This document shows, in pieces, positions 9,243 to 49,907 of a stretch of DNA of 64,000 nucleotides (position 1 is the stretch's first letter; each line of letters begins with the position of its first letter). Origin of the DNA: Lophium mytilinum (lineage: Eukaryota). The stretch covers positions 620,001 to 684,000 of the forward strand of contig MU004190.1 in assembly GCA_010093605.1 (NCBI GenBank). Reading direction: 5' to 3'. Made by a program: the position numbers and the translations under genes. The notes below the pieces were generated by a model, which did not search any database, was not told the origin of the DNA, and was given only the letters and a program-made list of their open reading frames with translations.

Positions 9243-12200
9243 ATGTCGACCGAGCGCACCCCTCGCCGTGTATTAACTGACGAACTTCGCGTAGACGCCT
9301 CCACGGATCAAGATGAGGCCGTTACAGATGTCGAGGTCAATGGACAGCAAGCCGTGCTGTCCAGACCAGCCAAAAACCCCACCATCTTTCACCGAATGAG
9401 GCATGACAAGTCTATACTAGCCGTCGTAGTATCAGCTTCGCATATCTTCGCAGGAACACAAGGAGGAGAGATCTTAGTGAGTCGAGCTGAGCTATGAAAG
9501 AACTTATCTGATTCACGAAAGGTCTACAGTCTGGACACGTATGGGTGCGTCAAAGTCATTGAAGGCCACAGAGGGAGTGTGCTGGGCCTCTGCCTGTCAC
9601 AAGATCAGGACCTTCTATTTTCTAGTGCAGGAGACAGGATCGTCAATGTAAGGCATACATCACTACACTCAAGGCATCTACTAACTATACTTAGGTCTGG
9701 AGTACCAAGAACTTTCTCCGCGTCTATACCATATACTCTCTCTACGATGTCGGCGACGTATTCTGTGTGTCATACTCCTCCTCCCTCAAAACAGTATACC
9801 TGGGTTGTCAGAACACAAGCATTCAGGTGACTTACAACAGTTCCATTACGCGCCACGCAGTGCTGACAAGCCGATAGTGGTACGATCTAAGAGAAAAGGA
9901 CGCTCGCCCTCCACCAGACCCTAAAGCGCACCCGACCGAGCGTGCAAGCCGTTTCTTCGACTCCTCCGGCCCTGGTGGTGTCCGTACCCCTCGACCGCGG
10001 TCTTCAGATGGTGGGCCTCGAAACGCGGTAGGTGGCCAGTTACTAGAGATTCATAACCAGTACATTCGCCAATTCGCCCATTTTGGCTACGTATATTGTA
10101 TGCTGATAGCTCGGGGAATAACATCGGACGATTCAAACGAGGAAATACTCATATCTGGAGGGGGAGACGGGGTGGTGCATCTGTGGGGTCTGAATGGGGA
10201 CAAAGGGGGTGCCATATACGAACTTCAGGCTCTCGGGGACGACCAGGAGGGGGGAGCGTCAGTCCTGTCTCTTGCATTGGATGGGAAATTCCTCTACAGC
10301 GGACGCCTGGATGGAGAGATCAACGTATGGGACCTGGAAACGTACCAACTCGTAAGAAGCCTGAAGACGGTCACTGGCGACATACTATCACTGAGCGTCG
10401 GAGGTGGGTTCTTGTTTAGCACTGGGGTGAATGGTCTCGTTCAGGTAAGCCGAGTTTCCAAGCACGTTTCAGCCATTCTGACTTTCATCCAGAAATTCAA
10501 CCGCCAATACGAGACTGTGGCCACCTTCAAAGCTCACGATGAACTCGTCTTGGCATCGACTTTTGCGTACAATAGCAAGCTCAGGCCTATCTTTGTCACC
10601 GGTGGCAACGACAGTACGGTTGCGATTTGGGACGTCCGCGACTGTATCTCCGCCCCAGCCAACAACAAGCGCACAAGCAACGGTAAGTTTTCCGAGTTCC
10701 ATTACACCTTGTATATTCCAGACACTAATCTAGCCAGAGCATCTTTTCGAATTCCTAAAAGAGTTTGTTTCTTACCGTACTGTATCTTCTGATGCGCGAT
10801 ATAAAGGCGACTGCCGAAGGGGCGCTTCGTACCTCCGATCTGTCTTCAAGAATTTTGGCGCTACCACAGAAATGCTGAACACCAAGGACTCCTATAATCC
10901 TATCATTCTCGCCACTTTCCGTGGTAATCGTCGGCAGCAACCCGCCCGTAAGCGCATTCTATTCTATGGCCATTACGATGTCATCCCAGCCGAGAATGAA
11001 CAAGGAAAGTGGATCTCAGACCCCTTTTCTCTCCAGGGAATCGATGGCTATCTCTATGGACGCGGAGCGTCTGACAACAAAGGCCCGATTATGGCCGCTA
11101 TCTTTGCCGTAGCCGACTTAATAGCAGAGCAAGCCTTGGATTCTGACGTTGTCTTCCTGATCGAAGGCGAGGAAGAGTGTGGTTCGCGAGGCTTTTCAGA
11201 CGCCATCCAAGCCAATAAAAAGCTCATCGGCGACATTGACTGGATTCTCCTAGCCAACAGCTATTGGCTGGATGACCAAAATCCTTGTCTCACATACGGC
11301 TTGCGAGGTGTGATTCACGCAACCGTGCAAGTCGAATCCCCACATCCCGATCTCCACAGCGGTGTCGACGGCAGCGCCAACCTTGACGAATCACTCAAGG
11401 ACCTTATCATGACACTCGCTCAACTCACCGGCAAACACGGCAAGGTGCGAATTCCAGGCTTCTATGACCCCATCCTACCCTTGTCTCAGGATGAGAAGAA
11501 GCTCTACAAAGACATCACCCAAACCCTCGTCCGAGGGAACCCAGACCTCGGCGACCCCGACGAACTCGCAACCTCCCTCATGCGACGATGGCGCGAGGCC
11601 TCCCTCACCATCCACCGCTTCCAAACCTCCGGCCCGGAAAACTCAACCATCATCCCCCGCCTTGCTCGCGCTTCACTCTCTCTTCGCCTAGTCCCCAACC
11701 AGGAGTCCGCCGTCATCGCCCAAATGCTCAAAGACTTTCTCCACCAAGTCTTCGACAGCCTCGACACGGAGAACAGCCTCACCGTCACCATCGACCACGT
11801 CGCCGAACCCTGGCTCGGCGACTTCAACAACCAGATCTTCCAAACCCTCGAGCGCGCCATCATCGACGTGTGGGGTCCCACACCCGCACCCAGCCCAAGC
11901 GTCGCGCACCGGCGTAAATCGTCCGCTGGGCACGCCGCCCGCGCTTTTGCCCAGCGCAACTCGATCACCTCGACTACGCTTGCTGCGGGGTCGGGCGAAA
12001 AGGAGGCAGAGGAACCGGCGGCTTCCGCGATTGCGAACGGGAAGACGGAGCAAGGCGTGTTTGTCACCAAGCCATTGTATATCCGAGAGGGCGGCAGCAT
12101 CCCTTCAATCCGCTTCTTGGAGAAGGAGTTTGGAGCGCCCGCGGCCCATTTGCCGTGTGGGCAGGCGAGCGATTCGGCGCATTTGGATAATGAGAGATTG

Positions 12201-12272
12201 AGGCTTGTGAATTTGTATAATAGTCGCAGGGTTTTTAAGAGGGTGTTTCGGGAGTTGCCGAAGAAGGAGTAG
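9243..12272 (+). CDS. DUG2: WD40 + M20 metallopeptidase domain protein, glutathione degradosome subunit Dug2
   Basis: N-terminal WD repeats (GH..SVLGLCLS...LFSSAGD; LYSGRLDGEINVWD; FVTGGNDSTVAIWD) spread over several exons. C-terminal M20 motifs: FYGHYDV, YGRGASDNKGP, EGEEECGS, DLHSGVDG, REGGSIP, SDSAHLDNE. A WD40+M20 fusion is the Dug2 architecture. Confidence 0.88.
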
Positions 12273-15017: not shown

Positions 15018-17358
15018 TCACGCAGTGCCCGCCCACTGCGCCCAATTCTCCTCCTCGACGGCATCTGGGATTGCCGTTCCGCGAAAGAGGCTGTCGAAGA
15101 GCGCCACGTCGACGCCCTGCAGGTCCCAGTCATCTTCAGCTCCGAAGAGGGGAAGCTGGTCTTCTTGGATGTTGCCGTTGCTGAAACTGGAGACACTATT
15201 TCCTGGCGGTGGAAGCTGTTCCGGCGGCGTCAGCTGGTCAATATTTATCTCCGTGGTCGGGTCACTGTTATAATCCAGGGGCCCATCAACTTGATTTGCG
15301 GGCAGATAGTCTGGGCTCGATAGCAATAGCTGGTTATGTTGGCCTTGTCGATTGGGGACTAGTGTGTCTGCGCCTAATGTGGCCAAGAGCCTTTGCTCGG
15401 GCGCCGTCGGCGCGGTTGAAACGGACTTCGAGATGGCGCCGCGCTCAAAATTGATGGTGCCAAAGTAGGGGATATGGACGTGCAGCCCCTTGCCGCCACT
15501 AGTCAACTTCCCATAACACTCGAGCTCCTCTTCGTCACCTCTGGAGGAGTTAGTGTTATAGCTGGTTCCGCTGGCGGCGTTAGCCTCGATAGCGAGCAGA
15601 TGGCGGAGGATGCGGGATATTTTCGAGGAGATAGCATCGGTGCCAGCGCGAGCCATAGATTCGAGGATCTCAAGGGTACGCTCCATGATGCCGCGGTCGC
15701 TAGGACGGCTATGGGCAAGGAAGCTGAAAACGGCGCCTGGGTTCGAGTTTTGGCCAAGACCCTGGGACCGGCTGCGGGAGTCAAGATGGGCAAGGCACAA
15801 GACGGTAGTGGAGATGAATGCCAGAAAGTCGGTGCCACGGCAGTAGAAGTGGGCAGGGTTTGAGGTGCGGAAGGCTACAAAGCGGACTAGAGTCTCGCGG
15901 CTGACGGTGACGGCAGTGATCTTGCTGTGATCGTACCTATGGTCGGGCGAGGAGCGTAGCATATAGGGCAAATGCAGCCGTATTAGTAGGTGATAGTGAC
16001 TGAATTGGTCCATGAGGCGAATTGTCTCGTGAAGGACCTCTGTGCCGCCCATATTGCTGGCTGAGAGATCGGGGATTAGCCACCACTGAGGGGGCATCTC
16101 GGCGGCGGCCTTCTGCAACAGCGTGTCGATATCATGGGTTTCGGAGAAGTTGTTTTCGTTGCGCTGTAGGATGCGGTCGGCTAGGGTGCAGTGGATGCGC
16201 TGCATGCGGTCAATGGGCTGGCATCCTTCCAACGACTCTGGAGTCGCGAATCGGACTTCGAGCGAAGTGCACGGTAGACCTAGCATGAGCGAGAGATAGC
16301 GGTCCATTTCAACAAGGCGAAAACAAATTTGGTCCGGATTGAAGATTGCTCGCATTTCTGGTGTGAGGAACTTCAACGACGGCGAATTGAGGCCGCGGTG
16401 GAGCGCCATCATCTGCGCAACAGTAGTCGCTCGGCGCATTGCCATCCAAGCCCTGTGGAGGTTGCCCGCATAGTTCTGGTACTCGGCCTCGATCATGATG
16501 CACTCAATGCCCTCGACGGAGCGAATGAGATCTTCATTGGTGGTTACCAGTCTAATGGCCGATTCGACGACACGAGACATAATATCGCAGGCGCCCAGGT
16601 CTGCCAATTCGTCAATAGCAGAAGGGAGAACGCCTTGAATAAAGGTGCCGAGCACTAGAAGCTTGCGCGCAATCAACACCGGGTGGGAGCCGGGCGGTGG
16701 TAATTTTAGCATTTCCTGGGGCGAGGGCGGGTCCCAGTCCATGGAGCTGGAATATGGTGCGCATATTCCGCCATGAAGATGGGCTGATAGCCCAACGGGG
16801 AGTTTGCAGATGAGGTCCATATCGTGCTGGCTTGGCCATACCGCGATGAGAGCGTGGGACAGTTCCTCATACTTGCCTGCGATATATCTGCCATGGACTG
16901 GTGAAATCGTGGTGGCAGCTGAGGGCCGCTTCAACGTAGGTCTTGGGAGGTTGGACTGGCCCGTATTCAGAACGTGCTTTGGAGGTATTAGAAGAAACAC
17001 GCACCCCTATTCTGCGGCTACTGCAACTTACTGAAGTACCAGTCTCGACTTCGGAAGAGGCCGGTGTTGGAATGCCCGCAGAATAGTCCGAATCAACCAA
17101 GTGCTCGATGAGTCGCTCGACCCTACCAAGGCGAGCCTCTATTGGATTGCTGCTAGTGGAGGGCATAGTAGGCTCCTCGGCGAGCTCTTGGCTGAGGCAT
17201 ACCGACCCGCGTCGCTTGCAATTCTCGCAGACAGCACTGGTAGTCGCAAAGATGCAACGAACCTTGCGCCGCCTACACTCCCAACAGTTTTGGGTACCCT
17301 TGCGAACCTTCCGTCGCTTGGACTCTGGTGCGTCCACCTGGGGGCTCGTTCCGGACAT
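15018..17358 (-). CDS. Zn(II)2Cys6 fungal transcription factor with fungal-specific TF middle domain; intron 16977-17031
   Basis: RKGTQNCWECRRRKVRCIF...CENCKRRGSVC binuclear cluster in exon 1. GTAAGT donor at 17031 and AAG acceptor at 16977 join it in frame to the 660-codon ORF (DRYLSLMLGLP, HYHLLIRLHLPY). Confidence 0.92.
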
Positions 17359-17978
17359 TGCTCACCGCAACCTGCACTTGAAGGACAAATTTCCAAGGAA
17401 TTTGGCGTGCTCGGGTTGGAAAACGATGTTCGCGCACCGAGGCGATGAGGGTTCGGTCGAAGTATACTTTCCTATCAGATTACTAATGCCTCTCGCCTGC
17501 TTCAGCCGAGCTCGGTGGACGAACAATCACGGCGTCCCAGGCTACTCCAAGCCGTCTCTTTGTCTGAGATATCCGCGGAATCATTGATCATCAGCATGCG
17601 TTTTGACAAGGACAATATAAAAGTCGTTCAGCACCCAGAGCATGTCGAGGGAGAGGTATGAGTGATGTGATGTAGTTCAGGGATCGTATGATGTGCAAGA
17701 GAGGATGTCGGGAAAATGTTCGGCCGGGAATCACGTGGCTTGAAATATAGAGCACGTGATGTTTTGTGATATATCGTAACCTTGGAGCATAAGACCTAGG
17801 AACAAGACGATAAAGCGATAGATATCTATCTGTCTGAGCGGCATAGAGACAATGACATTCTGACAATCTCTACATTCTAGCTACTTCGTACTACTTCGCG
17901 AATCTGGTACAGGCAAAGGAAGCCTCCCCGCCCCTTCGAAAATCTCTACTACCACCCAAGAGACATCAAGTTCCCAGC

Positions 17979-19946: not shown

Positions 19947-21545
19947 TCAATCCCAGAATAAGTGGTCATAGCGACGCCAATCAACGCAGGACGAATCATT
20001 CCAGTCGAGTTCCAAGCCCATGTCTTTAAAGGAACGCGCGAGCTCCTGCTCTCTATCTGTCGGTTCAATCGGACACGGATCGTCGCCTACTGCCGCAACC
20101 TTCGTTAGGTTCGGCAGCTTGTCATGGGCGCACAACCGGAGGCGCTCGAAGCTCTCGGATACGGTGTCATATGTTCTGTCGTCAGAGTCCTTGGCATCTA
20201 GTTCCAGGATGGAGAGGGAAGTTGGAAGAATGTCTTCTATTGAAGCCGCACGAATCGGATACGGAGCCATTGAATCGATATCATCGTAGTATTCTTCGTC
20301 AAACTCTTCGTCATCTTCTGGTTCCTGTGCAAAGAGTGCTCTCAACGGAACTTTTAGGTGAGTTAAAGTGCTGAAGTGCGTAAACGATAAGACTGGCCAG
20401 ACGCGATATGCGATTTGTTCAACTTTTTCCTCGTCTTCGAGATCCTCAAAGCTCCATTCCAAACTAAGGTATTCTAGAGTATCCTTTGCCGGTTGCAGAA
20501 TGTTGATGATATCTCGCCATCGACGGGGAGGCTGTTGCTCCGCGCAGGTGTTAATACACAAAGTGAAGGACTTCAGTACTTTACAGGAACGGACCAAAGT
20601 GGATAGCTGATCAGAGTCCACCAAAGTCTGTTTCAATACTAGCTTGGTGATTGAAGCTGTCTGAGGCCTGAATATATCAACTGATAAAGACACTTCGCCG
20701 CATCCCTCTACGTGGAATATCCTCAACGAAGGCATGTTCCAGAAAAAGTCAAGGTCGTTAAGATCGTGATCGTACGGCGGGGCTGCGTAGTCGCAGTGGG
20801 ACCCGGTGATGCTTAGCGTTTCCAATGCCGGCAGGTTTGGGCGTATTGGGTACAGGCTCGCTTGCAATGGTAGCATTATGGAGCCGATGGGATCTTTGCT
20901 TTCCGATCCCCAGTCGTCTTCGTCACAGATAGCTACATTGAGGTGTCTAAGATTTGGGGTCAGGTTCGCAAACGTGAGAACTTGTGCAGGTGGACAGTAT
21001 TGACCGGCATATCTCGAATGGAGTTCTTGAAAGCTCACACAGGTTGAGTAACCGGCGGGATGGAACTTGAATGCAGGACGTTGGTGGTTGGAGCTTGTCA
21101 TGCTCAATATGAAGCCATCAGCAGGTGTGTACGCAGTCTCGCATCCTCCTACGCAGATTTGTTCGCCGCAATGGCCAATTGTAAACTCAAGCCTCTCGAC
21201 TTTAGCGGCCAGGTCTGGGCGGGAGGAAAACGTCCGCAAAAGTAGCGCCCAGCTGATGTCCTTGAGATCCACCATCGAAAGAGCTATACGTTTGTACATG
21301 TGACGTTCCATCTCCTCGTTGAAGATCCTGGCGACCTGGGAGAAGGCGGCGGCGTCTCGTGCATTCGGCAGCCAGGAAGCAATCTCCCCAATCATCTCTT
21401 TTGGAAGGTTTGCGAGGTAGACGTGGGTAGAGGTGGAAGCAGCTACGCTCTGTTGTAAAAGGTCATCCGGAGAGCATCGAGGAATCGGGGTGCCGTGCTC
21501 GTTGGCATTGCCGTCACTGTCCTGCCTTGTGCGTTTGAGCGACAT
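19947..21545 (-). CDS. F-box domain protein with LRR-like C-terminal region
   Basis: F-box-like LANLPKEMIGEIASWLP...AAFSQVARIF, LLLRTFSSRPDLAAKVERL, and repeated LxxLxL motifs (LRHLNV, LETLSI, ITKLVL, LKSFTL, LEYLSL, LTHLKV). 532-codon intact ORF. Confidence 0.75.
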   Translation of the reverse strand: MSLKRTRQDSDGNANEHGTPIPRCSPDDLLQQSVAASTSTHVYLANLPKEMIGEIASWLPNARDAAAFSQVARIFNEEMERHMYKRIALSMVDLKDISWALLLRTFSSRPDLAAKVERLEFTIGHCGEQICVGGCETAYTPADGFILSMTSSNHQRPAFKFHPAGYSTCVSFQELHSRYAGQYCPPAQVLTFANLTPNLRHLNVAICDEDDWGSESKDPIGSIMLPLQASLYPIRPNLPALETLSITGSHCDYAAPPYDHDLNDLDFFWNMPSLRIFHVEGCGEVSLSVDIFRPQTASITKLVLKQTLVDSDQLSTLVRSCKVLKSFTLCINTCAEQQPPRRWRDIINILQPAKDTLEYLSLEWSFEDLEDEEKVEQIAYRVWPVLSFTHFSTLTHLKVPLRALFAQEPEDDEEFDEEYYDDIDSMAPYPIRAASIEDILPTSLSILELDAKDSDDRTYDTVSESFERLRLCAHDKLPNLTKVAAVGDDPCPIEPTDREQELARSFKDMGLELDWNDSSCVDWRRYDHLFWD

Positions 21546-22160
21546 CTCGAACAGATACTACTGGAGTACGTTAGAATAATGCTTTACCCAAGAGTGAAGC
21601 GCATTGGAGAAACACAGGGATTCTACTTACCAGAAGAGTCTAACTAGACGCTGTGGTGTTAGCTGGGGTTGATCCGATGGTTGTTGAGAGCAGAGGAGAA
21701 TCAGGTAGACGATTGAATCGCGTCGCGTATTTTCAAGCTACCGACTCAAACGGAATGGCCTCATCGCCTGCGCACGTGACTTAAATATATCAACTCACCT
21801 CGTATGTTGTGTAAGGATTCAACTCAAAGAACGTTTAGTCAGTGTGCAAGTATTGAAAGCCTTGTAGTCTTCGAGGAATTCCCCCAAACTCATATTTCCT
21901 TTCCCTTCGACTCCCTATCCAAAACTCCCTTTGCTTCGAGACTTGGAAACCAAGGGATAAGATCGTTGATTTTTATGAACCTTATATGGTAGACACGAGA
22001 AAGATGAATATTCTTTCCATCCCTAGGACTAATCCCCAAAATCTATCATGACGCTAAATTGCAAACCGCACATCCACACAAATGTGTCATCTCTGAACCT
22101 CACCCGCAGCCATAGCACAACACTTCCCAGCACATCCATAGGTACCACCACCCTTCACCA

Positions 22161-23224
22161 CTACGGCGCCCTCTCCAACTCACCCACCCCCTCCGGCTTC
22201 GGCCACGGATACCCATCCGGAAACTTCTCACCTGGCCTCCTCTCCCGATCCCACCCCAACAGCCCCTCATAGCTCCTGCACTCATGCTTCGTATTGAAAT
22301 ACGGGTACGGCCCGCTGACCCCCTTGACCCATCGGAAAGTCACTAAAGAGGCGTCGGCGGTGCACATGAGCCGGTTGCGGAGCACGTCGACGCAGTGCTC
22401 GAAGTGGGCTTCGGTGATGTTGGGTTCGGTGGCGAGTTTGGTCGCGAGGACGGGAAAGAGGTGGCGGAGGTGGGGTTTGGTGTTCCAGTGGCTGTGTCGT
22501 GTTAGGGTTTTGTATACTGTGGGTTTGTTTTGAGGTAGGGGAGGGAGGCGACGCACTGGTCTTCCCATAGCGCTTGCAGGCAGTGGAGTTGGTGGGCGGA
22601 TTCAAGGTAGGCTACGTAACCCTGCGGCAGAGAAACAATTATTAGCGGAATCCAACATGGTCGTCAAGAGTAATAATATAACCAAACGATAAATAGGTTG
22701 AAGACTGAGTGGTGAACATAGAGAATGGGTTGGCAACTCACCCCGCCAAACTCCTCCGGATACTGCACCGCATCCGTCGAAAGCTCTAGCCCCTCAATTT
22801 CCTCCCTCGTGATATTCAGCGGCCCAGTATGGGTAATGCGATGCCATCTTGCGAGGATCTCTTCGGTTGGTGGGCCTTTGTATGGAGAGTCTTCCCAAAA
22901 TGAGTTCTGAAATATCTCCGTGTGCGAAGTGTCACCCAGCGCCTCGTCGGCTGGTGTCCATACACCCTGCGTTTTACTTTTGTGCTCTGGCTTTGTGTCT
23001 CCCTTCGTGATGTCTCGCAAGATGAGGTTGAGTATCAGACCGAAGATGATGAGGACGCTGATCACGTGAGTTGTCCAGTGGACGATGTTGGCGGAAATGG
23101 AGTGCTTCCGCCGATTGGAAAATTGCGGAGATTGGAGTTTCTCGAAATCTGAGGAGGAAGATATCATTGCGGCAGATTCGCTGTCGGACTCTTGGGAGTT
23201 GACGGGGAAGTATGTGGGCGCCAT
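22161..23224 (-). CDS. UstYa-family (DUF3328) oxidase, 292 aa; join(23224..22742, 22621..22557, 22491..22161)
   Basis: N-terminal TM helix (VISVLIIFGLILNLIL), SPYKGPPT...ARW, GYVAYLESAHQLHCL and AHFEHCVDVLRNRLMCTAD (two HxxHC motifs), then FNTKHECR. Introns 22622-22741 (GTGAGT..GCTAAT..CAG) and 22492-22556 (GTGCGT..CTAAC..CAG) give an 879-nt open frame. Confidence 0.95.
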
Positions 23225-24196
23225 GGCTGTGGAGGCGAAGATGGAAGGGAGAGGGAGGACAGTGAGGTCTCGGCTCTTAGAGCGGAAACGGGCGTGTATA
23301 TCTCTACCCGGGAAAATAATAATGGAGAGTAGTACAAACATGGAAGTAGAAAAAAGCTTTACGACCTCCGACTAAAGCTTAAGCCACGAATATCCCGCAT
23401 GCGGGGATAAGATATTGCAAAGCAAGACGAACCGGGTAATATTTCATGTGTCCAATGGAATTTTCTAGGGCGGAGGAATCTAACCGAAATGAATCTTGAG
23501 ATATGGTTGTTCCACAAGCCTAATTCGGAAGCTGCCTATAAAAGATCGACGGCTGACCATCGCCACTCGACCGAGGTCCGGACCGGGAAGGTGAATAGTC
23601 GTATAACGTTGCTCAAACTTCGGAGAGCCAACGACTGCGTTACTTCGAAGACGCCGTCAGCTTATCAATCTTCGGCTTTGAATAGTATACCGTGTATATT
23701 TCGAGAATACGATTGTAAATTGATCACGGGCCAATTGTTGATGCCGCAAAAGGAAGGCGTAAGATTACCGGACCTGCACAGCTATCTGAAGGTTTCTGAT
23801 GCCATATGTCGTATGTGGATACACGTTCCTTGTGGAGAAGACGATAGCAAGGGATGGGAGGTTTAAATAGCCAGTAGAGCTTGTTTCTCGTGTTGCATCC
23901 CGCTATGATTGGTGTGGTCAGGCGATCCTTGTGGACTTGCACGAGTGCACAATGTGGTACCTTCCACATCTGCACAAGAATGCGACGGAAAAGAAGATGC
24001 TAGATGCTCAAAGTCAAGACCCGCGAGCGGAGCAAACATGCGAACCTGGTAAATGGGTTTCTCGTGAGTAATACAATCCGTGCTCAGAAGGTAGGTAATC
24101 CTTCGGACCGGCATCGCGAACGAACCTCTAAAAGCAGAGATTCCCACCACTTCTCAATCACACATATTCAAAACAATTCGACGACGATAACTCAAG
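23225..24196. promoter_or_regulatory. Shared divergent promoter region of the DUF3328 oxidase and the repeat precursor
   Basis: About 970 bp between the two head-to-head ATGs (23224 minus, 24197 plus). Contains the near-perfect inverted repeat TATCCCGCATGCGGGGATA at 23391-23409. Confidence 0.6.
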
Positions 24197-24864
24197 ATGC
24201 TTTTCAAGTCTTCCGTTGCCGTGGCGGTTCTATGCAGCTCTGTCGCTATTTTGGCGGCACCTGTAGCCAGTACGTCATTCTTTGGTCACTGAGACTTGTG
24301 CAGGCATACTAGAAGGACTTAACATTAACCAGTTGTGTAGAAGATGCACTTGAGTTCGCCGGCGCTTCGTACAGCCACTTGTATAAGGAGGCCGAGGATG
24401 CCGAAGTAGCGAAGCGCGATGCCAAACCTGAAGACGCACTCGAGTTTGCGGGTGCTTCGTACAGTCGTCTGTACAAGGAAGCTAAGGATGCTGAAGCTGC
24501 CAAGCGTGACGCCAAACCTGAAGACGCGCTTGAATTCGCCGGTGCTTCCTACAGCCACCTCTACAAGGAAGCGAAGGACGCCGAAGTCGCGAAGCGTGAA
24601 GCCAAGCCTGAAGACGCTCTCGAGTTTGCTGGTGCCTCCTACAGTCATCTGTACAAGGAGGCAAAGGACGCTGAGGTTGCCAAGCGTGAAGCCAAACCCG
24701 AAGACGCTCTCGAGTTTGCCGGTGCTTCATACAGTCACCTATACAAAGAGGCCAAGGACGCCGAAGCCTCAAAGCGCGATGCCAAACCCAAAGACGCCCT
24801 TGAGTTCGCCGGCGCTTCATACAGCCACCTGTACAAGGAGGCCAAGGATGCCGGAGCAGCCTAA
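24197..24864 (+). CDS. Secreted Kex2-processed repeat protein (KEP), candidate RiPP precursor, 198 aa; join(24197..24269, 24341..24864)
   Basis: Signal-peptide-like MLFKSSVAVAVLCSSVAILAAPVA. Phase-1 intron 24270-24340 (GTACGT..TTAAC..TAG). Then six repeats of DALEFAGASYS[H/R]LYKEA[K/E]DA, separated by five KR sites. Confidence 0.95.
24343..24861 (+). repeat. Coding tandem repeat, 6 units with a 90-nt period
   Basis: DALEF codons start at 24343, 24433, 24523, 24613, 24703 and 24793. Confidence 0.95.
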
Positions 24865-26209
24865 ACCCTTCGGAGCTGTACCGGGAATGGGAATACGACG
24901 ATGTGAGGCTGGGAGAGAGTACTTGGTGGAACGGAGGACATGAAAATGTCGGGACAGGTGTCGTGAAGACCATATTGAAAAGCAAGGATGAAGCTACGAA
25001 GTGAGAGAAATAGCAAAGACAAATACGCTCGTTGACTAAACATCAATAATAATGTGAAATGATTGAATATCGCGACTCACAGGTGTCACAGGCTGCTGTA
25101 TGCCGTGTGATCGAGGCTCAAAACGAGTTGGAAGCATCCACTGGATGCTGTGGGTGCTGATGAGACGGAGTGCTCGGAGCTTCCGATATCAGCACCAGAA
25201 TCGGTATGTGATGCGGGTTGACGGTCCAACGATAGGAGACTAGCTGACAATAGCCGCACTGAAAGTTAGAAGACACAAGGGCCGCGGTATCCAGATCTGG
25301 CACCGTACTCCAAACTACGATTCACGCAATTCAAGAGAGAAGAGAGGATTAGTCAACGTATGTATCTGAGTCCAATGAGGAGTAGCAGCTCGCGGTCTGC
25401 AAAGCGGCACACGCGACTTGAAATGATTCCAATGGTGCACTGAGATGACATCAGTCATCATGGCCTCAGCTCTTGTGGTCCCAGCTCTTGTGGCCCCCGG
25501 CAACCGGCACACCGGTCTTAGCTCTAGGGCTGGGGCTGTAAGACGTTGATTAGCCCGGCTATTCCATGCTAGATCGCTTTCTTCACTAACTGAGAGCCCG
25601 TCACAGTGGGCGTGGCACCCTCGAGGTGTTTCAGCCTCTAGGGGCGTGTATGTATGCAGCCGACATGCTGGTCTAATATCGGAAGTCGGCTGTGGTGGCA
25701 ACGAAAGGACGACGCAGCCCTCTCCCTCAACACCAAGGACTCCAAGTTGGGGATGCATATCGGCAGGGTCGTCTCCCGTGAGCCGTGCCGAATTAGCCAG
25801 ATCTTGGCTCGTGGCGTGGCGCCTCCCGCAGCCACTCGCCCAAGATTTGATTCCCAAGCCTGCGGTCCCACAGAAAACATACGTCAACGAACCGCCGGCA
25901 TGGAGTCGCTTCTTTGATAGCGCCCTCCAGCGGAAGCACCGGAGGCAGAACACACTTTCTCGACGCAATCTTCTGCAAATATTGAGGCGTTGAAACGATG
26001 ACCTGCCGCGCTAAAAATAATTTCACTGGTAGTTGATCAGCGCCCAGGAACAATGCTCGCGCGCCAGTCCCACCGCGTCATGCCGAGCTCAGCCCAACAA
26101 CAGGGGGCGGAATGGGCACAGCCTCCAGCCCTGGGGAACTGCTTAATCTTATATACCCGCCCTCCTCCGCGGGTGGCATCAATTCACCTTGTCCCACATT
26201 CTTTGAGCC

Positions 26210-28297
26210 ATGAAGACTTTATCTATAGTGCTGCAGCTGGCTACGGCCCTGTCGTTTGCAGACAGCACGTCTGGTAAGCTTTGTTGACAGCTCCTTCTTA
26301 CCACGAGACACAGCGCTGACTTGCTTAGCAAACGCCATATACCAGGAACCCTCCCTCGAAGTTGCCCGCGCGATCAACGCATGGAAGCGTGCAGCTCCGG
26401 TTGCCCCAGACGGCTACACGCCGGCAGCAGTTGACTGTCCCTCGACGCGCCCTACCATCCGCCTTGCGAACGGCCTCTCGGACGAGGAAACAGCATGGCT
26501 GGAGAAGAGGAGGAGCAACACCGTGTCTCCTATGCGCGAGTTCCTCGTGCGGATGAACATCACCGGATTCGATGCCGGCGCATACGTTGACACCCACGCG
26601 AAGAACACGTCAGCGATGCCAAACGTTGCGATTGCGGTGTCTGGTGGTGGATGGCGAGCGCTTATGAACGGAGCTGGGGCTTTGGCCGCATACGACAACA
26701 GAACGCCTAACGCTACCAACACTGGCCAATTGGGGGGTCTGCTACAATCTGCGACGTATCTAGCGGGTCTATCGGGAGGTGGATGGCTGGTGGGCAGCTT
26801 GTTTGTCAACAACTATACTTCCGTGCAGGACCTCATCAACTCGACTCCAGATCAATCGGGGGATCTGTGGCAGTTCGGCAACTCTATTATCCAGGGTATG
26901 ATTACCTCGAGACCGTTTTCGCACTAGGTTGTGGTACATTGAGTTGCTAATGTTTCCTAGGACCGGAATCTGGCGGGATCCAAATTCTCTCTACCGTTCA
27001 ATACTATGACGATCTTTATGACACTGTCAATGCTAAATCAGAGGCTCGCAACTTCAACACCTCTTTGACCGATTACTGGGGCCGTGCGCTGTCTTTCCAA
27101 TTGGTCAATGCCACCGACGGAGGTCCAGCCTACACCTGGTCTTCAATTGCAAATGACACAGAGTTCGCCGCAGGCAATACTCCCCTACCTATCCTCGTCG
27201 CGGACGGTCGTGCTCCAGGTGAGGTCCTGATCTCTGGAAATGCGACCAACTACGAGTTCAACCCGTGGGAGATGGGTAGCTTCGACCCCACCGTATACGG
27301 CTTTGCCCCACTCAGATATGTCGGCTCAAACTTTACTGGTGGCAAAGTCGATTCCAACCAGCAATGTATCGAGGGCTTTGACAATGTTGGATATGTCATG
27401 GGGACTAGCTCTTCCCTCTTCAACCAACTGATTCTGAATCTCAACTCGACCGACGCTCCGCAACTCCTGAAGTCTGTTATTGGGGACATCCTTACGGATC
27501 TGGGTGAAGACCAGAACGACATCGCGGATTGGACACCCAACCCTTTCTACCACTTCAATAACAAGACAAACCCCAACGCTGCAAACAAGCGTCTTACTCT
27601 TGTCGACGGTGGCGAAGATCTTCAGAATATCCCGCTAAACCCGCTCATCCAGCCTGTCCGTCACGTCGACGTCATCTTTGCTGTCGACTCTTCCGCCGAT
27701 ACTACCACAGACAACGGCGCCGCCAATTGGCCTAATGGCACTTCTCTCGTCGCAACCTATCAACGCTCGCTGAACGAGACGATCGAAAACGGCACTGCCT
27801 TCCCTTCAATCCCAGACCAAAACACCTTCGTCAACTTAGGCCTGAACAAGCGCCCAACTTTCTTCGGCTGCGACAGCTCTAACTTCACCGGAGACGCGCC
27901 CCTCGTTGTCTACGTCCCCAATACACCCTACGTCTACAACTCTAATGTCTCCACCTTCACACTCTCGTACAACAACACCGAGCGCAACGCCATCATCGAG
28001 AACGGCTACGACGTCGCCACGATGGCCAACGGCACACTCGATGCGGACTTCCCCGCCTGCGTGGGCTGTGCGGTACTGAGTCGGTCTTTGGCCAGGACAG
28101 GCACGACGGTTCCAGATGTGTGCAAGACATGCTTCACAAAGTACTGCTGGGATGGCACGCTCAATAGCACGAATCCCGGGAAGACGTTCGCATCAAGTAA
28201 GCTAGTGCAGATTAAGGTGTCTGCAGCCGGTACATTCGTGCCGAACGCGGTGGGTCTGATTGCTGCAATGGCCGCAGCTGTTTTATTGATCTTGTAG
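26210..28297 (+). CDS. PLB1: Secreted, probably GPI-anchored lysophospholipase / phospholipase B; 3 exons
   Basis: Signal peptide [24 protein letters not shown], catalytic [30 protein letters not shown] and a hydrophobic C-terminal tail ([16 protein letters not shown]). Confidence 0.93.
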
Positions 28298-29094: not shown

Positions 29095-29607
29095 TCAGTT
29101 TCTATTCGCCATCATCTTCTCAAAAGAGCAACTACACGCCTCAATCGTATTCCCCCACGGATCCAGCACATACAAAGCCACCGTCCTGACCTCCTCCCCC
29201 TCCGTACTCGCCGGACTCACCGTCTCCCCAATCTTCCTCCCGCCCGCTGCCACCACCCGTGCACACAGCGCCTCGGGATCCGGGTCCGTGACCGCGAAGT
29301 GGAACACGCCGCCGCGGGTATAGTCAAACGATGCGGGCGCGCTCATCGGCGGGTCGATGAACTGGAATAGCTCGAAACCTACGCTGTTCCCTGTTGCGAG
29401 GAATGCGACTTTGACTTTGTGCAGGCGGGAGTCGTAGATGCGGAAGATGGGGGCCGAGGGGTCGGTGGAGCGGTCTGTGCAGCGGGGCAGGTTTTGGAGT
29501 TTGCGGAAGCCGAGGACGCGGGTGTAGAAGGTTATTGCGGCGTCGAGGTCGGGGACGTGGAGAGCGATGTGGTTGAGGACGCGGTTGAAGGGGGTGGCTT
29601 CTGCCAT
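29095..29607 (-). CDS. Glyoxalase/bleomycin-resistance (VOC) family protein
   Basis: NHIALHVPDLDAAITFYTRVLGF, GFELFQF, GVFHFAVT and YVLDPWGNTIE are VOC metal-binding motifs. Confidence 0.9.
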   Translation of the reverse strand: MAEATPFNRVLNHIALHVPDLDAAITFYTRVLGFRKLQNLPRCTDRSTDPSAPIFRIYDSRLHKVKVAFLATGNSVGFELFQFIDPPMSAPASFDYTRGGVFHFAVTDPDPEALCARVVAAGGRKIGETVSPASTEGEEVRTVALYVLDPWGNTIEACSCSFEKMMANRN

Positions 29608-30428
29608 TCTGGGGTGGTGGTGGTGCTGCTGAATGAGCTATGGTTTGTAGCTCGGTAGGTGGGCTGGGTTAGAAGGAATTTAGGAGTGTGGCTACTTACG
29701 TTTGATGAAGAATGAGTACTCGAATGAAATTTGAGGGTAAGAGTGTTTGTGAGGTAGGATAACGGTTTATGGACAAGTCAGTGGCCTGGCCTCTCATTGA
29801 AAGAGGGGCCAGCTCTCCTTTATTTAGGTCGCTATGCTACGCCCGCCAGTGCACCGCACCCCCCTCAATCTGCCTCAAATACATTCAATCCGGGGGAACA
29901 TAAGCACTAATCGGGTGACTACGCGCCTCTGACGACCTATAGACACGAGTATTAAGCGAATGGGCAATTGGATCATCAGAATCTGGATAACATGAACCGG
30001 CACCTCGTAGGACTGGCTAGTTTCCACGGAAGTCTAACCCCTCGTCTTAGAACCAAGGTACACCGTTTGAGCGCAGGAAAGCAGGATTTCACTAATATAG
30101 CATAGGGTAGAAACGTGCATGTGAGTAAAGCAATAATTGCCTAATTCTGTAAATTTTCAATGCTATGACGGAACTCTCGACCTGAGAAAATTTCAAAAGA
30201 ATGAACTCAAGTTAGGAAACAAAATTCTACTTGCTTCTGTTCACACTAATAGATGCTAAAACATCAACATACAAACTCAAAACTCCGAAACTTTGTAACT
30301 CCGTAAATGGATCTACGCAGAGAGATCAGCAAGGTCTGTCACAACAGCCACCTGCTTATTGCTCGGCAATGCCCGATGCTGTATGCATTGAAGTGGATCC
30401 TTCTCTTGGATCCCCATTCCCTGTAATG

Positions 30429-42663: not shown

Positions 42664-45600
42664 TTATATAAGAGTAAACGTCTCCACCCGCAAGTTCTCG
42701 AAGTGTTCCAGCGTAAGGCACCTTGCAAAGCCGATCCTCGTATACGTAGCATTCAGTCCATCCACCGGCGCAAGAACCAGGCCCATCCCACACGTCCTAT
42801 CATATTTCTTCCCATGCCCAGAAGCAGGGCAATTCTGACGGAACAGATAAATGCAGTGCACCACCTTTCTCGACCCACGCTCGGACTTGACGTCAAAATG
42901 CATGTCTCCGACGATTCGACTTCCGGTAGAATCTCGCATCTGGATTATTTGCCCGAAGGCATTGGATGAAGCATCGTATCCAAGAACCGCCTTGAATATA
43001 GGGGCTACTATGCGCAAGTAGCCCGACTTGACTCTACCGAAGGGGTCCGCGCTCGCAAGCTCGTCGTGATGTTCAAGGATAACGGACATGCCCTTTTCCC
43101 ATGTGCGGTGCTTTCCTGTCGCGTCGAGAGTAGTGTCTTCGAAGCTGGCTTTGACAGAGGAGTATTGGACTGGCCCAGATAGAGATGCCCATGACCAGCT
43201 TGGAGCGACGTAGTTCGCGTGGCGTATGTGGTCTCTGTCTTTGGAAAAGTGCTTGTAAGAGCCCCATGCCAAGCTACGCAAGAGATCCTCTGACCAGAGA
43301 CCTGCGACGTATTCACTCAACGTGTAGTCACTAACAATCCTCGCGAGACCAGCGATAGCGGGCAGGGTATCCTCTTCCTTGGTGAGTAGCCGGTTCGAAT
43401 AGTCGGCAACGGTATGGTACCACAGGTCGTGAATGTTGCGATCGCCCAAGTCGTTAATGGAGTCAAGGAGCCTCTCGTTGAAGGAGCCGTTGTAGCGCTG
43501 TTGCTTCGCCATATTCTTTGTGGGCCACCCTTCGTACGTTTTCACGCAGCGACACTCCCAGAGCACTTGCTCATGGGTGAAATGAGCGATGCGCGGAGAC
43601 ATTTCGCATTCTTGGAGTGTCCATCCTCTGCTATGCAGGGGTCCCTCTTCGTGCAGTTTTTCCCACCACGATTGGGGTTTTATGGCCCTTATGGCTAGAG
43701 GCCTGCCGTCCTCGTCCTTGAGCTGAAATTCAACGTAGTTGTTGTCTGTTTCTCGTGAGCGGAAGATGCCCTCTGTGTCATCATCGGAAACATTGGCCGC
43801 TATGGTCAAGTACGAGTTGCTGTAAACCTGGCTCATCAGAGACGTCTCTCGATCCCAATCTTCGCGAGAGTCTTGTATGATGCATAATGCATCGATCCAC
43901 AGATGCTTGACTCCGAGCTGATGCGCAACTTCGCAAGCTTCCACGAACGTCAAGGGCAGGATGTCCACCTCGATAGACTTCATCCGGCTATCAATGTTCC
44001 TTGCAAGGGTCGAGCTCGAAGCTGTGGCTTCTGCGTGCCACCGATGGGTCATAGCCAGATATCGTGATTTCCTGGGCAGCGAGCATCCTTCCACCAGTTT
44101 CAACGTCTTGTTTCGGTCCCAATCGCTAAGATAGAGCAGTCTCGTCGGCAAAAATTCTTTCTGCGGCTGAATCCTACAGCCATCATGGCTTTGGTTACAT
44201 TGCTGCAGCCATGAACGCAGCTGTTCGAACGTCTCGAGGGACGAAGTACTTCCAGATAGTGGCTGTCGCTTGTCTGAAGAATGTCAGCAGTAAGCCTCGT
44301 GGGTCATACAAGGGGATCTACTTTCGAAAGGCTCGACAGTGAGCTGAAAAGCAGCCCGCAGGGTTTTTGGACATTCGACGTCTGCTGGAAACGGCTCATC
44401 AATCTGACTCCTCATAGAATCTACTGGCCCGCGGCGTGAGCTCCGATACAGTCTCACCTCACTAGGCTGAGGAAGCGTGATCGTCGTAATTCCGAGCTGT
44501 TTCCAGAAGAACATGCAGAAAGGACATCCGCTGCGGGAAGAATCTTGGAGAGAGTTCAATGATAGATGCCACTTCGGAGCATCCCAACTCTGCCATTCCT
44601 CGGTGAAGAATGCCGCTGGTAAGTTTTCGCATATCGCGCACAATTCCGCCTTGGTAACAGTTGATAAATCCAAAGATATACTGCGCTTTCGTGGTGCGGG
44701 CGTCTCGGCTTGCTTGCGTTTCAGCAATTCCATGATGGCTTGATTGCCGCCCTCCTCTGCAGCGTCAAGGGCCGTCCTGTCAGTGTACGAGACTGCATGT
44801 GCATCCGCACCTGCATCAAGCAATATTCTCACCATCTGTTCATTCCCTTTCATACACGCCAAATGCAAAGGCGGTTCCTTCCTCCCTGCAGCCGCGCTCG
44901 GATCAGCGCCATCAGAGAGAAGTACCTGCGCCGTTTCGAGGTGATCGCCTTCCACAGATGCTTGCAGCGCAGTACTCCAGCGTGCCTCCTTATCATCTAA
45001 ATGTACACCAGCTTCGAGAAGCACCCTCACGACTTCAGCATATCCTCTGGTGGCCGCAACCGTGAGCAAGCGAAAATGACTCCCGTGCTCTTGTTTGACC
45101 GACACTCCCACGCTTAGTAGGCAATTGAGGAACTCAACGTGCCCCGTCTCAACGCAGGCTTCGAGAGCTCGTCGCATCGCCTGTGTAGTCTCCACCTTCT
45201 CCTTTGTCACCTCTTGTACTAGTCTTTCAAACACCTCAACGTGATTGCCCTTGATCGTTAACATCAGCGACGGAGAGGCTGAATCCCAGGCGTCGGTCTC
45301 GAGCTTAGCACCGGCGTTCAGGAAGGTGTTGACGATGTCGATGCTGCCTGCTTCAGCTGCCGCTTGCAGCGCCGTGCGTCCCCACACCCCAGCTTTTGCA
45401 TTGACTTCAGCACCAGCATCCATCAATCTTTTGACCAATTCGACGTCACCCCTCCCAGCTGCGGCCTGGAGTGCGGTCCTGCCTTGTCTCACTGGAGGCG
45501 CATTGGTGTCCGCGCCTGCTTGCAGTAGTATCTCCACAACATCCAAATGTCCTCCACGCGCGGCTTCCTGTAGTGGCGAGGAGTAGTGCTCACGGTTCCA

Positions 45601-46482: not shown

Positions 46483-46559
46483 GGATCGCTTTTGTTGATG
46501 GAAACTGAGTGGAAGTGCTGAACAGAGCTGTTACCTAGGTGCGGTAGTAATTCGGGGCC

Positions 46560-49377: not shown

Positions 49378-49907
49378 GATAACTATCTGTATTGGATGTT
49401 CTGAATCAAGAGTTATGTTTTATCAGATCTAGGCGACTTGTATTACTAATGCACGAGGAATACTGTCGATAATGACGTCACACTGCGCCCTTCCAACAAA
49501 ACTAGCGGTGGTGGTGACTAATCGCAGTGCTGATCGCCCGTTTTGTCTTATCACCAGAAGTGGGAGTTGAAGAGGTTTGATCGCTGCTGGCCATGAATAT
49601 AGGTCAAATTCACCTGCCAAAGCGGCTCGAAAGAGCGGGCGCTCTACGGCGCCAGTTGGCGCAGCCCGCTCAAAAGCGGCCCAAGTCGTCCTTACATCTT
49701 ACAGGCAATTTTATAATATCAAAGACCCTTATTACTCGTTATACTGTTTTAGCTAGATTGCAACACTCGCTCTAGCTAGCGCCTGAAACCCCCGAAGGAA
49801 ATCCGTCTTCACAAGTCTGATAGGTCCATGAAAAGATAAAGGAGGAACAACCGAGAAGTTAGTAGCAAGACAAGAGGACCTCAGGACTCCTCAGATCCAT
49901 GGCGGCG

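What the first reader, a model, noticed from the sequence alone, without database searches (positions are those of the whole stretch)
22161..24864. Candidate new fungal RiPP (dikaritin-type) system: DUF3328 oxidase head-to-head with a six-repeat FAGASYSHLY precursor
Seen: a three-exon membrane-anchored protein with two intact HxxHC motifs (HQLHC, HFEHC) is transcribed divergently, across about 970 bp, from a signal-peptide protein. That protein consists of six 30-aa units, [DE]AKPEDALEFAGASYS[H/R]LYKEAKDAEVAKR. Both genes are fragmented in the ORF track and appear only after splicing. Established: UstYa/DUF3328 oxidases next to Kex2-cleaved repeat precursors define the ustiloxin (YAIG), phomopsin (YVIPID), asperipin-2a (FYYTGY) and victorin (GLKLAF) pathways, where cores typically follow an acidic ED-like motif and are oxidatively macrocyclised, often via Tyr ether links. 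Inference: this core matches none of those, and its two tyrosines (YxxxY) plus His/Phe predict a different mono- or bicyclic peptide made by a minimal two-gene system.
Basis: partly seen in the sequence, partly recalled or inferred. Interest (0 to 1): 0.93.

Follow-up and report, generated by a model that had tools for sequence, protein, structure and literature searches.

The report
Uncharacterised fungal UstYa–repeat-peptide gene pair
A fungal copper-oxidase gene of the UstYa family sits head-to-head with a gene for a secreted six-repeat peptide precursor, a well-known layout for ribosomal cyclic peptides, but this peptide family has not been studied and its product is unknown.

Summary
A three-exon UstYa/DUF3328 gene (22161-23224, minus strand; PF11807 on all three exons; HQLHC and HFEHC) lies 972 bp from a divergent two-exon gene (24197-24864). 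That gene encodes a signal peptide followed by six 30-aa units, with five KR sites. RNA contigs from public runs splice both oxidase introns and the precursor intron exactly as modelled. The six repeats are saturated at synonymous sites yet almost identical in protein. Of 40 listed differences from a related species, 35 are synonymous.

The precursor belongs to a small unannotated family: 12 relatives, and the 4 that are named are all Dothideomycetes.

The best reading is an uncharacterised dikaritin-type (ust-RiPS) RiPP pair. Its chemistry is untested, and I could not check whether the pair is also adjacent in other genomes.

Pairs of this kind are common: 1758 Kex2-repeat precursors with a nearby DUF3328 gene are catalogued. 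This is therefore a new member of a known kind, a good natural-product lead, and not a 0.93 surprise.

A long spliced minus-strand leader that runs antisense over the precursor gene was noticed in passing.

The parts
22161..23224 (-). UstYa/DUF3328 oxidase gene, 292 aa. Exons are 23224-22742, 22621-22557 and 22491-22161. It has an N-terminal tail, one transmembrane helix (about residues 51-72), and a C-terminal domain carrying HQLHC and HFEHC plus two further Cys (226, 254).
   Evidence: PF11807 matches on all three exons. Splice sites read. Both introns are spliced in RNA contigs of X3 and X5. Motifs and Cys positions come and hydropathy. The exon junction sequence matches that of P0003, and exon 3 is 70% identical to it.
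23225..24196 (.). A 972-bp divergent intergenic region, presumably a shared promoter. In run X3 it is transcribed on the minus strand as a leader with two partly spliced GT..AG introns (23643-23768 and 24046-24125).
   Evidence: Joints and bubble depths: 8.5 spliced against 16.9 unspliced, and 20.9 spliced against 8.6 unspliced. Intron ends were checked.
24197..24269 (+). Precursor exon 1: a 24-aa hydrophobic N-terminus, predicted to be a signal peptide, plus the first base of the next codon.
   Evidence: Translation. 10-aa hydropathy windows reach 2.5. Relatives P0002, P0006, P0008, P0010, P0011, P0012 and P0014 begin with similar N-termini. SignalP was not available.
24270..24340 (+). Precursor intron, 71 nt, GTACGT..TAG.
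   Evidence: Sequence. It is removed in an X5 contig from a related organism. No contig with the spliced form was seen in X3.
24341..24864 (+). Precursor exon 2: six 30-aa units starting at 24343 and every 90 nt after, five KR sites, TAA at 24862-24864.
   Evidence: Synonymous against non-synonymous counts. Of 15 listed differences from organism C, 13 are synonymous.
15018..17361 (-). Zn2Cys6 (fungal binuclear cluster) transcription-factor ORFs about 5 kb beyond the oxidase's 3' end. A possible pathway regulator, but membership of the system is not shown.
   Evidence: PF00172, E 7.5e-05, on ORF 16867-17361. Proximity is the only link.

Best explanation
This is an uncharacterised dikaritin-type (ustiloxin-type, 'ust-RiPS') RiPP gene pair in a fungus, probably a Dothideomycete.

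Inferred pathway:
1. The precursor enters the ER through its signal peptide.
2. Kex2 cuts after each of the five KR sites in the Golgi.
3. Carboxypeptidase and Ste13-type dipeptidyl trimming of the [DE]A-KP spacer may follow.
4. The membrane-anchored, lumen-facing UstYa enzyme, a binuclear-copper, O2-dependent oxidase by family, modifies each unit. The most likely modification is a crosslink or oxidation among the invariant Phe(+2), Tyr(+7) and Tyr(+11).
5. The conserved Y-K-E-A-x-D-A-G-[LV] tail is either part of the product or a follower sequence that the enzyme recognises.

Shown here: both gene models, their transcription and splicing, PF11807 membership, the repeat architecture, strong purifying selection on the peptide, and a conserved precursor family.

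Inferred: processing, the enzyme-substrate link, the type of modification and the size of the product.
For: 1. PF11807 matches all three exons, with both HxxHC motifs and one transmembrane helix.

2. The family mechanism comes from PMC12435403 (passages read). CctR is a membrane-anchored homodimer. Its HxxHC(x)nHxxHC motif binds two Cu per monomer. It needs O2 and electrons, and His/Cys mutants are dead. The cyclase AprY is reported there as copper-dependent too.

3. The precursor has a hydrophobic N-terminus, six units and five KR sites.

4. Selection acts on the peptide. There are 169 synonymous against 25 non-synonymous differences among units. In E-F..K-E-A the counts are 108 against 6. 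Of 40 listed differences from organism C, 35 are synonymous.

5. Both genes appear as spliced transcripts in runs of organism C.

6. The family comprises 12 relatives. Nine of 10 hits in 1.84 billion representatives carry the unit, and two more came from the profile search. That gives 31 units in 13 proteins with Y+7 and Y+11 in all, F+2 in 29 of 30 distinct units, and A+14 and A+17 in 28 of 30.

7. Umemura 2020: 22% of 7878 KEPs have a DUF3328 gene within 15 genes. The count peaks at the adjacent position. Tyr-containing repeats are enriched among them (65.6% against 38.2%).

8. No NRPS or PKS domain, and hence no alternative substrate source, was found in the 45 ORFs scanned. There is only one UstYa gene and one precursor gene in the window.
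Against: No product is known and no enzyme-substrate evidence exists.

Adjacency of the two families in other genomes could not be tested.

L. palustris supplies the best oxidase relative, P0003, which is 49% identical over exon 1 and 70% over exon 3. No precursor from that species appeared.

The aromatic motif lies about 11 residues before the KR. In the known dikaritins, as I recall them, the core lies close to the KR. That placement is recalled and was not checked here.

In run X3 the RNA over the precursor gene retains the precursor intron, so no productive precursor mRNA was seen in the window's own organism.

The invariance of Y+7, Y+11 and [KR]+12 is partly built into the regular expression used to collect the units.

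DUF3328 enzymes also act in NRPS and PKS pathways (PMC12048977).
Confidence: 0.66

Rival explanations
1. The precursor is an ordinary Kex2-processed repeat protein that releases unmodified linear peptides of about 20-28 aa, perhaps helical signalling or antimicrobial peptides. The UstYa gene next door would then act on another substrate or be a chance neighbour.
For: 78% of the 7878 catalogued KEPs have no DUF3328 gene nearby. The conserved unit of about 19 aa is long compared with known dikaritin cores, and its K-E-A-x-D-A-G half looks helix-forming (my judgement). DUF3328 proteins also serve NRPS and PKS pathways. The [DE]A-KP spacer resembles alpha-factor-type processing, which yields linear peptides (established knowledge, recalled).
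Against: The two genes are immediate, divergent neighbours, the position where DUF3328 genes peak around KEP genes. A rough chance rate for an adjacent DUF3328 gene is about 0.1%. That figure uses 9399 DUF3328 genes in 1461 strains and assumes about 10,000 genes per genome. No other candidate substrate gene was found in the scanned ORFs. The aromatic triad F/Y/Y is the most conserved part of the unit. Both genes are expressed in the same runs of organism C.
Confidence: 0.22
2. The gene encodes a secreted repeat protein that stays intact, for example a cell-wall or hydrophilin-like protein, and is not a peptide precursor.
For: The sequence is repetitive, charged and Ala/Glu/Lys-rich. No processing has been shown.
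Against: A dibasic KR or a similar [KE]R site stands at nearly every unit boundary in the window and in its relatives. The spacer length varies from 2 to 8 residues while the unit stays fixed. Copy number ranges from 1 to 6 among relatives. Both features are typical of multi-core precursors. No Pfam family explains the protein: the hits have no individually significant stretch.
Confidence: 0.07
3. The gene is an alpha-factor-like mating pheromone precursor.
For: Signal peptide, KR sites and X-Ala/X-Pro spacers resemble pheromone precursors.
Against: There was no MF_alpha hit in Pfam. Pheromone KEPs almost never have a DUF3328 neighbour: 3 exceptions among 443. The unit lacks the Trp/Cys/Gly-Gln features of ascomycete alpha-pheromones, which is a recalled point and was not tested.
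Confidence: 0.03

Closest known systems
Asperipin-2a pathway of Aspergillus flavus (precursor AprA with a single DUF3328 cyclase, AprY)
   Same: A Kex2-repeat precursor with a signal peptide and only one DUF3328 gene in the pathway (PMC7329392). The core is rich in aromatic residues and is crosslinked through Tyr side chains into a bicycle (PMC9233826). AprY is reported as copper- and O2-dependent (cited in PMC12435403).
   Different: The asperipin core is a hexapeptide, whose string I recall but did not see in any call. Here the conserved unit is about 19 aa, with F and two Y spaced at +2, +7 and +11. No reductase or transporter gene was found beside the pair. The product is unknown. Sequence relatedness of this oxidase to AprY was not measured.
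Ustiloxin and phomopsin pathways (UstA with UstYa/UstYb; PhomA with five DUF3328 proteins)
   Same: The same enzyme family (PF11807), the same precursor logic and a Tyr-based ether macrocycle.
   Different: Those cores are Y-x-I-type tetra- to hexapeptides (YAIG, YVIG and YVIP, as given). They need a tyrosinase and several DUF3328 proteins, a methyltransferase and other genes. None of these was found in the scanned window ORFs.
Epichloecyclin cluster (gigA, gigB, gigC, kexB) of Epichloe festucae
   Same: A small cluster built around a multi-repeat precursor with longer repeat units (PMC10540207; abstract seen in the listings).
   Different: A different fungal class and an unrelated repeat sequence. 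That cluster has its own kexin gene. I did not read the body of the paper.
Catalogued but uncharacterised KEP + DUF3328 pairs (Umemura 2020; nine dikaritin clusters in Venturia inaequalis, PMC9632046)
   Same: Exactly this architecture. It is defined there as a DUF3328 gene close to a signal-peptide gene with tandem repeats separated by kexin sites.
   Different: This repeat family was not found in what I could search. Umemura's Table S2 lists accession numbers and no sequences, so its silence means nothing. The eight Venturia supplement files held none of four motif strings nor the cluster name 'dikaritin-2'.

Membership tests
UstYa / DUF3328 (PF11807) | A profile match above the curated cut-off | tested here: met
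   Exon 1 scores 44.8 bits and exon 3 scores 76.9 bits against a cut-off of 25. Exon 2 alone scores 19 bits. The three matches cover profile positions 10-114, 123-142 and 156-220 in colinear order.
UstYa / DUF3328 (PF11807) | The HxxHC(x)nHxxHC motif, which binds copper in CctR | tested here: met
   HQLHC at 171-175 and HFEHC at 212-216 of the spliced model. The definition of the motif comes from PMC12435403.
UstYa / DUF3328 (PF11807) | A single N-terminal transmembrane helix with a lumenal C-terminal domain | tested here: met
   The best 19-aa hydropathy window scores 2.34 at residues 54-72 of exon 1. Two N-x-T sequons lie C-terminal to it. Topology is inferred, since no predictor such as Phobius was available.
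UstYa / DUF3328 (PF11807) | C-terminal cysteines for the inter-monomer disulfide, and a homodimer | tested here: inconclusive
   Two extra Cys (226, 254) are present and invariant against P0003. Their correspondence to CctR C190/C213 was not aligned, and the dimer was not modelled.
UstYa / DUF3328 (PF11807) | Copper- and O2-dependent catalysis | not testable with these tools
   This needs biochemistry. No solved structure of a relative exists: phmmer of P0003 against the PDB gave 0 hits.
Dikaritin / ust-RiPS precursor (Kex2-processed repeat protein) | An N-terminal signal peptide | tested here: met
   A 24-aa hydrophobic exon 1 ending A-P-V-A. Relatives have similar N-termini. This is a heuristic only, as SignalP was not run.
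Dikaritin / ust-RiPS precursor (Kex2-processed repeat protein) | Tandem repeats separated by Kex2 (KR) sites | tested here: met
   Six units at 90-nt spacing with five KR sites.
Dikaritin / ust-RiPS precursor (Kex2-processed repeat protein) | A DUF3328 gene in the vicinity | tested here: met
   The two genes are adjacent and divergent, with 972 bp between their start codons.
Dikaritin / ust-RiPS precursor (Kex2-processed repeat protein) | A tyrosinase, a methyltransferase and several DUF3328 genes (the stricter definition of Ding et al., as quoted in PMC12048977) | tested here: not met
   None was found in the 45 window ORFs scanned with Pfam. There is only one PF11807 gene in the window. The same paper notes that functional clusters lacking these genes exist. 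Genes broken up by introns could have been missed.
Dikaritin / ust-RiPS precursor (Kex2-processed repeat protein) | The core is post-translationally cyclised or oxidised by the DUF3328 enzyme | not testable with these tools
   This needs expression and mass spectrometry.
Alpha-factor-type pheromone precursor | An MF_alpha or pheromone profile, or a pheromone-like core | tested here: not met
   There was no such Pfam hit at E up to 1.

The most novel reading that the evidence does not exclude
The pair may define a new Dothideomycete subclass of UstYa-dependent RiPPs. In this reading a single copper oxidase crosslinks an invariant Phe/Tyr/Tyr triad (spacing +2, +7, +11) inside a conserved unit of about 19 residues. 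The product would be a macrocyclic peptide clearly larger than the 4- to 6-residue dikaritins, with K-E-A-x-D-A-G-[LV] serving as a follower recognition sequence. A further twist is that the oxidase mRNA can start beyond the precursor gene and run antisense through it, so the two genes could be switched against each other by transcriptional interference.
Probability: 0.25. Interest if true: 0.65.

Novelty: new member of a known kind. Interest (0 to 1): 0.45.

Why it matters
Each new UstYa-precursor family is a route to a new peptide scaffold and a new substrate for a recently defined class of binuclear-copper C-H-activating enzymes. This family has three practical advantages. The gene models are transcript-verified. 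The system is very small, which suits heterologous expression. Thirteen natural precursor variants already show which residues the enzyme is likely to need.

Known members of this RiPP class include mycotoxins and a host-selective plant toxin. The ecological role of a family conserved across Dothideomycetes, several of which are plant pathogens, is therefore worth knowing. It does not change how these systems are understood.

Tried and rejected
- No whole genome is held for the window.
The organisms of P0001, P0002, P0004, P0009, P0010, P0012 and P0013 therefore stay unknown.
- Two metagenome-contig scans found no relative. The precursor alignment A1 gave 134 pattern matches and 0 confirmed. 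The oxidase alignment A3 gave 416 pattern matches and 0 confirmed. Adjacency in other genomes is untested.
- The ESM Atlas search with the precursor gave a best score of 0.76 to a bacterial hypothetical cluster, which is below any useful level.
- The PDB sequence search gave nothing for P0003 and only a chance hit (E 0.96) for the precursor.
- Pfam hits of the precursor (RIIa, DUF2508, Sin3_corepress) have no individually significant stretch, so I rejected them as repeat or composition artefacts. The UniRef label 'DUF4148' on P0006 was not reproduced at E of 0.001 or better.
- P0007 (754 aa, K-P-E-D-V-type repeats) was dropped from the family by eye, because it lacks the E-F..Y...Y-K-E-A unit.
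- Motif searches in Umemura's supplements gave 0 hits. Table S2 holds accession numbers and no sequences, so this says nothing.
- No listed holder of the stretch is on record as RNA. X3 was judged to be RNA only from its spliced contigs.
- In X3, no contig with the spliced precursor form was seen. Contigs cannot show absence.
- Complex prediction and structure prediction were not used. The window's oxidase can only be supplied exon by exon, and a stand-in from another species paired with this peptide would have been weak evidence.
Full report
**1. The observation**

On the minus strand, an ATG at 23224 opens a 161-codon exon. That exon ends at a GTGAGT donor. A 65-nt second exon (22621-22557) and a third exon (22491-22161, ending in TAG) follow, after introns of 120 and 65 nt with canonical ends. 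The spliced frame gives 292 aa, with HQLHC at 171-175, HFEHC at 212-216 and two more cysteines at 226 and 254.

Pfam's UstYa model PF11807 matches the three exons in colinear order:

| Exon | E-value | Bits | Profile positions |
|---|---|---|---|
| 1 | 1.8e-11 | 44.8 | 10-114 |
| 2 | 0.0014 | 19 | 123-142 |
| 3 | 2.7e-21 | 76.9 | 156-220 |

The curated cut-off is 25 bits.

A hydrophobic stretch at residues 51-72 is the only transmembrane candidate. The best 19-aa window has a Kyte-Doolittle mean of 2.34.

On the plus strand, an ATG at 24197 opens a 73-nt exon that encodes a 24-aa hydrophobic N-terminus. A 71-nt intron (GTACGT..TAG, 24270-24340) follows, and the second exon runs to TAA at 24862-24864.

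Exon 2 holds six units whose starts are exactly 90 nt apart. Tandem Repeats Finder gives period 90, 5.7 copies and 81% matches. Five units end in KR. The first unit lacks the [DE]AKPE spacer, and the last ends D-A-G-A-A-stop. The start codons of the two genes are 972 bp apart.

**2. Transcript evidence**

One search for public runs that hold the stretch listed six runs. I laid four of them on 21900-25100.

Run X3 is labelled 'RNA?' and its contigs show no differing letters from the window. It contains a 1560-nt contig that skips 22492-22556 and 22622-22741, which are exactly the two oxidase introns.

Run X5 comes from a related organism, with most of its laid pieces under 90% alike. It has an 899-nt contig with the same two joints. 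It also has a 327-nt contig that joins 24269 to 24343 with two letters between. That is the modelled precursor junction with one substitution.

Both gene models are therefore confirmed by spliced RNA. Both genes are expressed in organism C, where X4 also carries pieces of both.

One search listed 40 of 133 differences between the window and organism C. Of those 40, 36 fall at third codon positions and 35 are synonymous: 22 of 25 in the oxidase and 13 of 15 in the precursor.

**3. Selection on the repeats**

The six units are nearly identical in protein but differ at almost every synonymous site. All 22 codons compared across the six units carry synonymous variants except the first Tyr codon.

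Over the 15 unit pairs there are 169 synonymous and 25 non-synonymous differences, on about 14 synonymous and 52 non-synonymous sites per pair. dS is saturated while dN is 0 to 0.06. Within E-F-A-G-A-S-Y-S-H-L-Y-K-E-A the counts are 108 against 6.

The peptide, not the DNA repeat, is what is being conserved.

**4. A conserved precursor family**

- phmmer of exon 2 against 1.84 billion representative proteins gave 10 hits at E of 0.001 or better.
- Nine are small proteins of 60-251 aa with the same unit. The tenth, P0007, is a 754-aa protein with a different repeat, and I set it aside.
- A word-index search had already found P0001 and P0002. A profile search added P0013 and P0014.
- Only four relatives carry names: Zopfia rhizophila, Bimuria novae-zelandiae, Clathrospora elynae and Ascochyta rabiei. 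All four are 'hypothetical' or 'uncharacterized' proteins, and all four species are Dothideomycetes.
- The best relative of the oxidase is P0003, a PF11807 protein of Lepidopterella palustris, also a Dothideomycete. It is 49% identical over exon 1 and 70% over exon 3.

A regular expression collected 31 units (30 distinct) from the 13 proteins, and I tabulated each column. The expression itself fixed [EQIG][FLY] at +1 and +2, [YF] at +7 and +11, and [KR] at +12.

| Position | Residue | Distinct units (of 30) |
|---|---|---|
| +1 | E | 27 |
| +2 | F | 29 |
| +4 | G | 21 |
| +5 | A | 22 |
| +7 | Y | 30 |
| +10 | L | 24 |
| +11 | Y | 30 |
| +12 | K / R | 23 / 7 |
| +13 | E | 26 |
| +14 | A | 28 |
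| +16 | D | 26 |
| +17 | A | 28 |
| +18 | G | 24 |
| +19 | L / V | 15 / 10 |

Four points follow from the table and the flanks.

- The His is not conserved: H in 15 units and R in 9.
- The spacer between the preceding [KR]R and E-F varies from 2 to 8 residues. It is K-R-Q-T-E-F in several relatives, which puts the N-terminal edge of the functional peptide at most two residues before E-F.
- Copy number runs from 1 (A. rabiei) to 6 (the window).

**5. Neighbourhood**

I scanned 45 window ORFs with Pfam, chosen from the 109 ORFs of at least 110 aa. No NRPS, PKS, tyrosinase or methyltransferase domain turned up.

| Feature | Coordinates (strand) |
|---|---|
| MFS ORFs | 3-536 and 1185-1742 (-) |
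| M20 peptidase | 10734-12272 (+) |
| Zn2Cys6 factor | 15018-17361 (-) |
| 536-aa ORF with no family | 19947-21557 (-) |
| Phospholipase B | 26229-28297 (+) |
| Glyoxalase | 29095-29637 (-) |
| Cytochrome P450 | 59109-59984 (-) |
| AMP-binding enzyme | 61269-62333 (+) |

The P450 and the AMP-binding enzyme lie more than 34 kb away. tblastn with P0003, P0002 and P0010 finds only one oxidase gene and one precursor gene in the window. Genes broken up by introns could have escaped this scan.

**6. How it most likely works**

The family mechanism comes from PMC12435403, of which I read passages with 'find'. The DUF3328 protein CctR is a membrane-anchored, disulfide-linked homodimer. Its HxxHC(x)nHxxHC motif binds two copper ions per monomer. 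It needs O2 and an electron donor, and it loses activity when the His or Cys residues are mutated. That paper reports that the cyclase AprY and the halogenase ApnU behave likewise.

The precursor logic comes from PMC7329392 (passages):

- 7878 Kex2-processed repeat proteins were found in 1461 fungi.
- 1758 of them (22%) have a DUF3328 gene within 15 genes.
- The DUF3328 count peaks at the adjacent gene.
- Tyr is enriched in their repeats (65.6% against 38.2%).
- Pheromone precursors almost never have such a neighbour.

On this basis I infer the following steps:

1. ER entry through the signal peptide.
2. Kex2 cleavage at the five KR sites.
3. Possible Kex1 and Ste13-type trimming. The [DE]A-KP spacer is a run of X-Ala and X-Pro dipeptides. 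This point rests on established yeast alpha-factor knowledge, which I recall and did not test.
4. Oxidative modification by the lumenal copper domain, most likely on the invariant Phe/Tyr/Tyr triad.

None of these steps is shown. I put the probability that the oxidase modifies this precursor at about two in three.

**7. Rivals**

- Linear, unmodified Kex2-derived peptides with an unrelated neighbouring oxidase: about 0.2.
- An intact secreted repeat protein: below 0.1.
- A mating pheromone: a few per cent.

The main weaknesses of the favoured reading are these:

- Adjacency in other genomes is untested.
- The aromatic motif sits unusually far, about 11 residues, from the KR.
- In the window's own organism (X3), the RNA over the precursor gene retains its intron.

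**8. Comparison with what is known, and novelty**

The architecture meets the working definition of a dikaritin or ust-RiPS cluster used in PMC9632046 and PMC7329392. It does not meet the stricter five-gene definition of Ding et al. as quoted in PMC12048977. That same paper notes that functional clusters lacking those genes exist.

The closest characterised analogue is asperipin-2a, which has one DUF3328 gene and a bicycle formed through Tyr crosslinks.

No paper in the held library contains any of 11 motif strings from this family. The eight supplement files of the Venturia paper contain none of four motif strings nor the cluster name 'dikaritin-2'. Umemura's tables list accession numbers without sequences, so they cannot be checked here.

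I class the finding as a new member of a known kind. It is a sound natural-product lead, and the family-level conservation is a small bonus.

**9. Noticed in passing**

In X3 the 'intergenic' region is transcribed on the minus strand. It carries two further GT..AG introns (23643-23768 and 24046-24125), both seen in spliced and unspliced forms.

This RNA is contiguous on the left with oxidase exon 1. On the right it joins a 1328-nt contig that covers the whole precursor gene without removing the plus-strand intron. The simplest reading is a long oxidase leader that runs antisense through the precursor gene. If it reaches about 25448 it would contain 19 ATGs.

Contigs cannot prove strand or ends beyond the splice sites, so this remains a lead.

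Noticed in passing
window 23225-25448 (minus strand): In RNA run X3 the region between the two genes is transcribed on the minus strand. It has two extra GT..AG introns (23643-23768 and 24046-24125), each seen spliced and unspliced. The RNA continues into a contig covering the whole precursor gene with its plus-strand intron retained. This looks like a long oxidase leader or antisense RNA over the precursor gene, with 19 upstream ATGs if it reaches about 25448. In the related organism C the oxidase contig stops near 23330 and the precursor is spliced.
   Followed up: partly
window 24682-24853, as seen in run X5: One contig of organism C 'goes back 172' with 8 letters between. That equals 180 nt, or two extra 90-nt units. 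Another contig skips 521 nt. Either the repeat number differs in the relative or the repeats were mis-assembled.
   Followed up: no
proteins P0010 and P0012 (unnamed sources): These relatives carry a second, different KR-flanked repeat (N-Q-I-Y-x-K-x-T-L-type) in the same precursor as the E-F..Y...Y-K-E-A units. One precursor may therefore feed two peptide types.
   Followed up: no
protein P0014 (Ascochyta rabiei, EKO05_0005875): This family member has a signal peptide and only one unit, directly after K-R-Q-T. Repeat-based precursor screens would miss it.
   Followed up: no
window 42664-46530 (minus strand): A HET-domain ORF (PF06985) lies directly next to a large ankyrin-repeat ORF. This is a typical fungal heterokaryon-incompatibility or NLR-like arrangement.
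   Followed up: no
window 48697-62333: A loose group of enzyme genes: epoxide hydrolase, FMO-like, alpha/beta hydrolase, MFS sugar transporter, cytochrome P450 and AMP-binding enzyme. It could be part of a separate metabolic cluster and lies more than 20 kb from the RiPP pair.
   Followed up: no
window 19947-21557 (minus strand): A 536-aa uninterrupted ORF with no Pfam family lies between the Zn2Cys6 gene and the oxidase. Its N-terminal part looks F-box-like by eye only.
   Followed up: no
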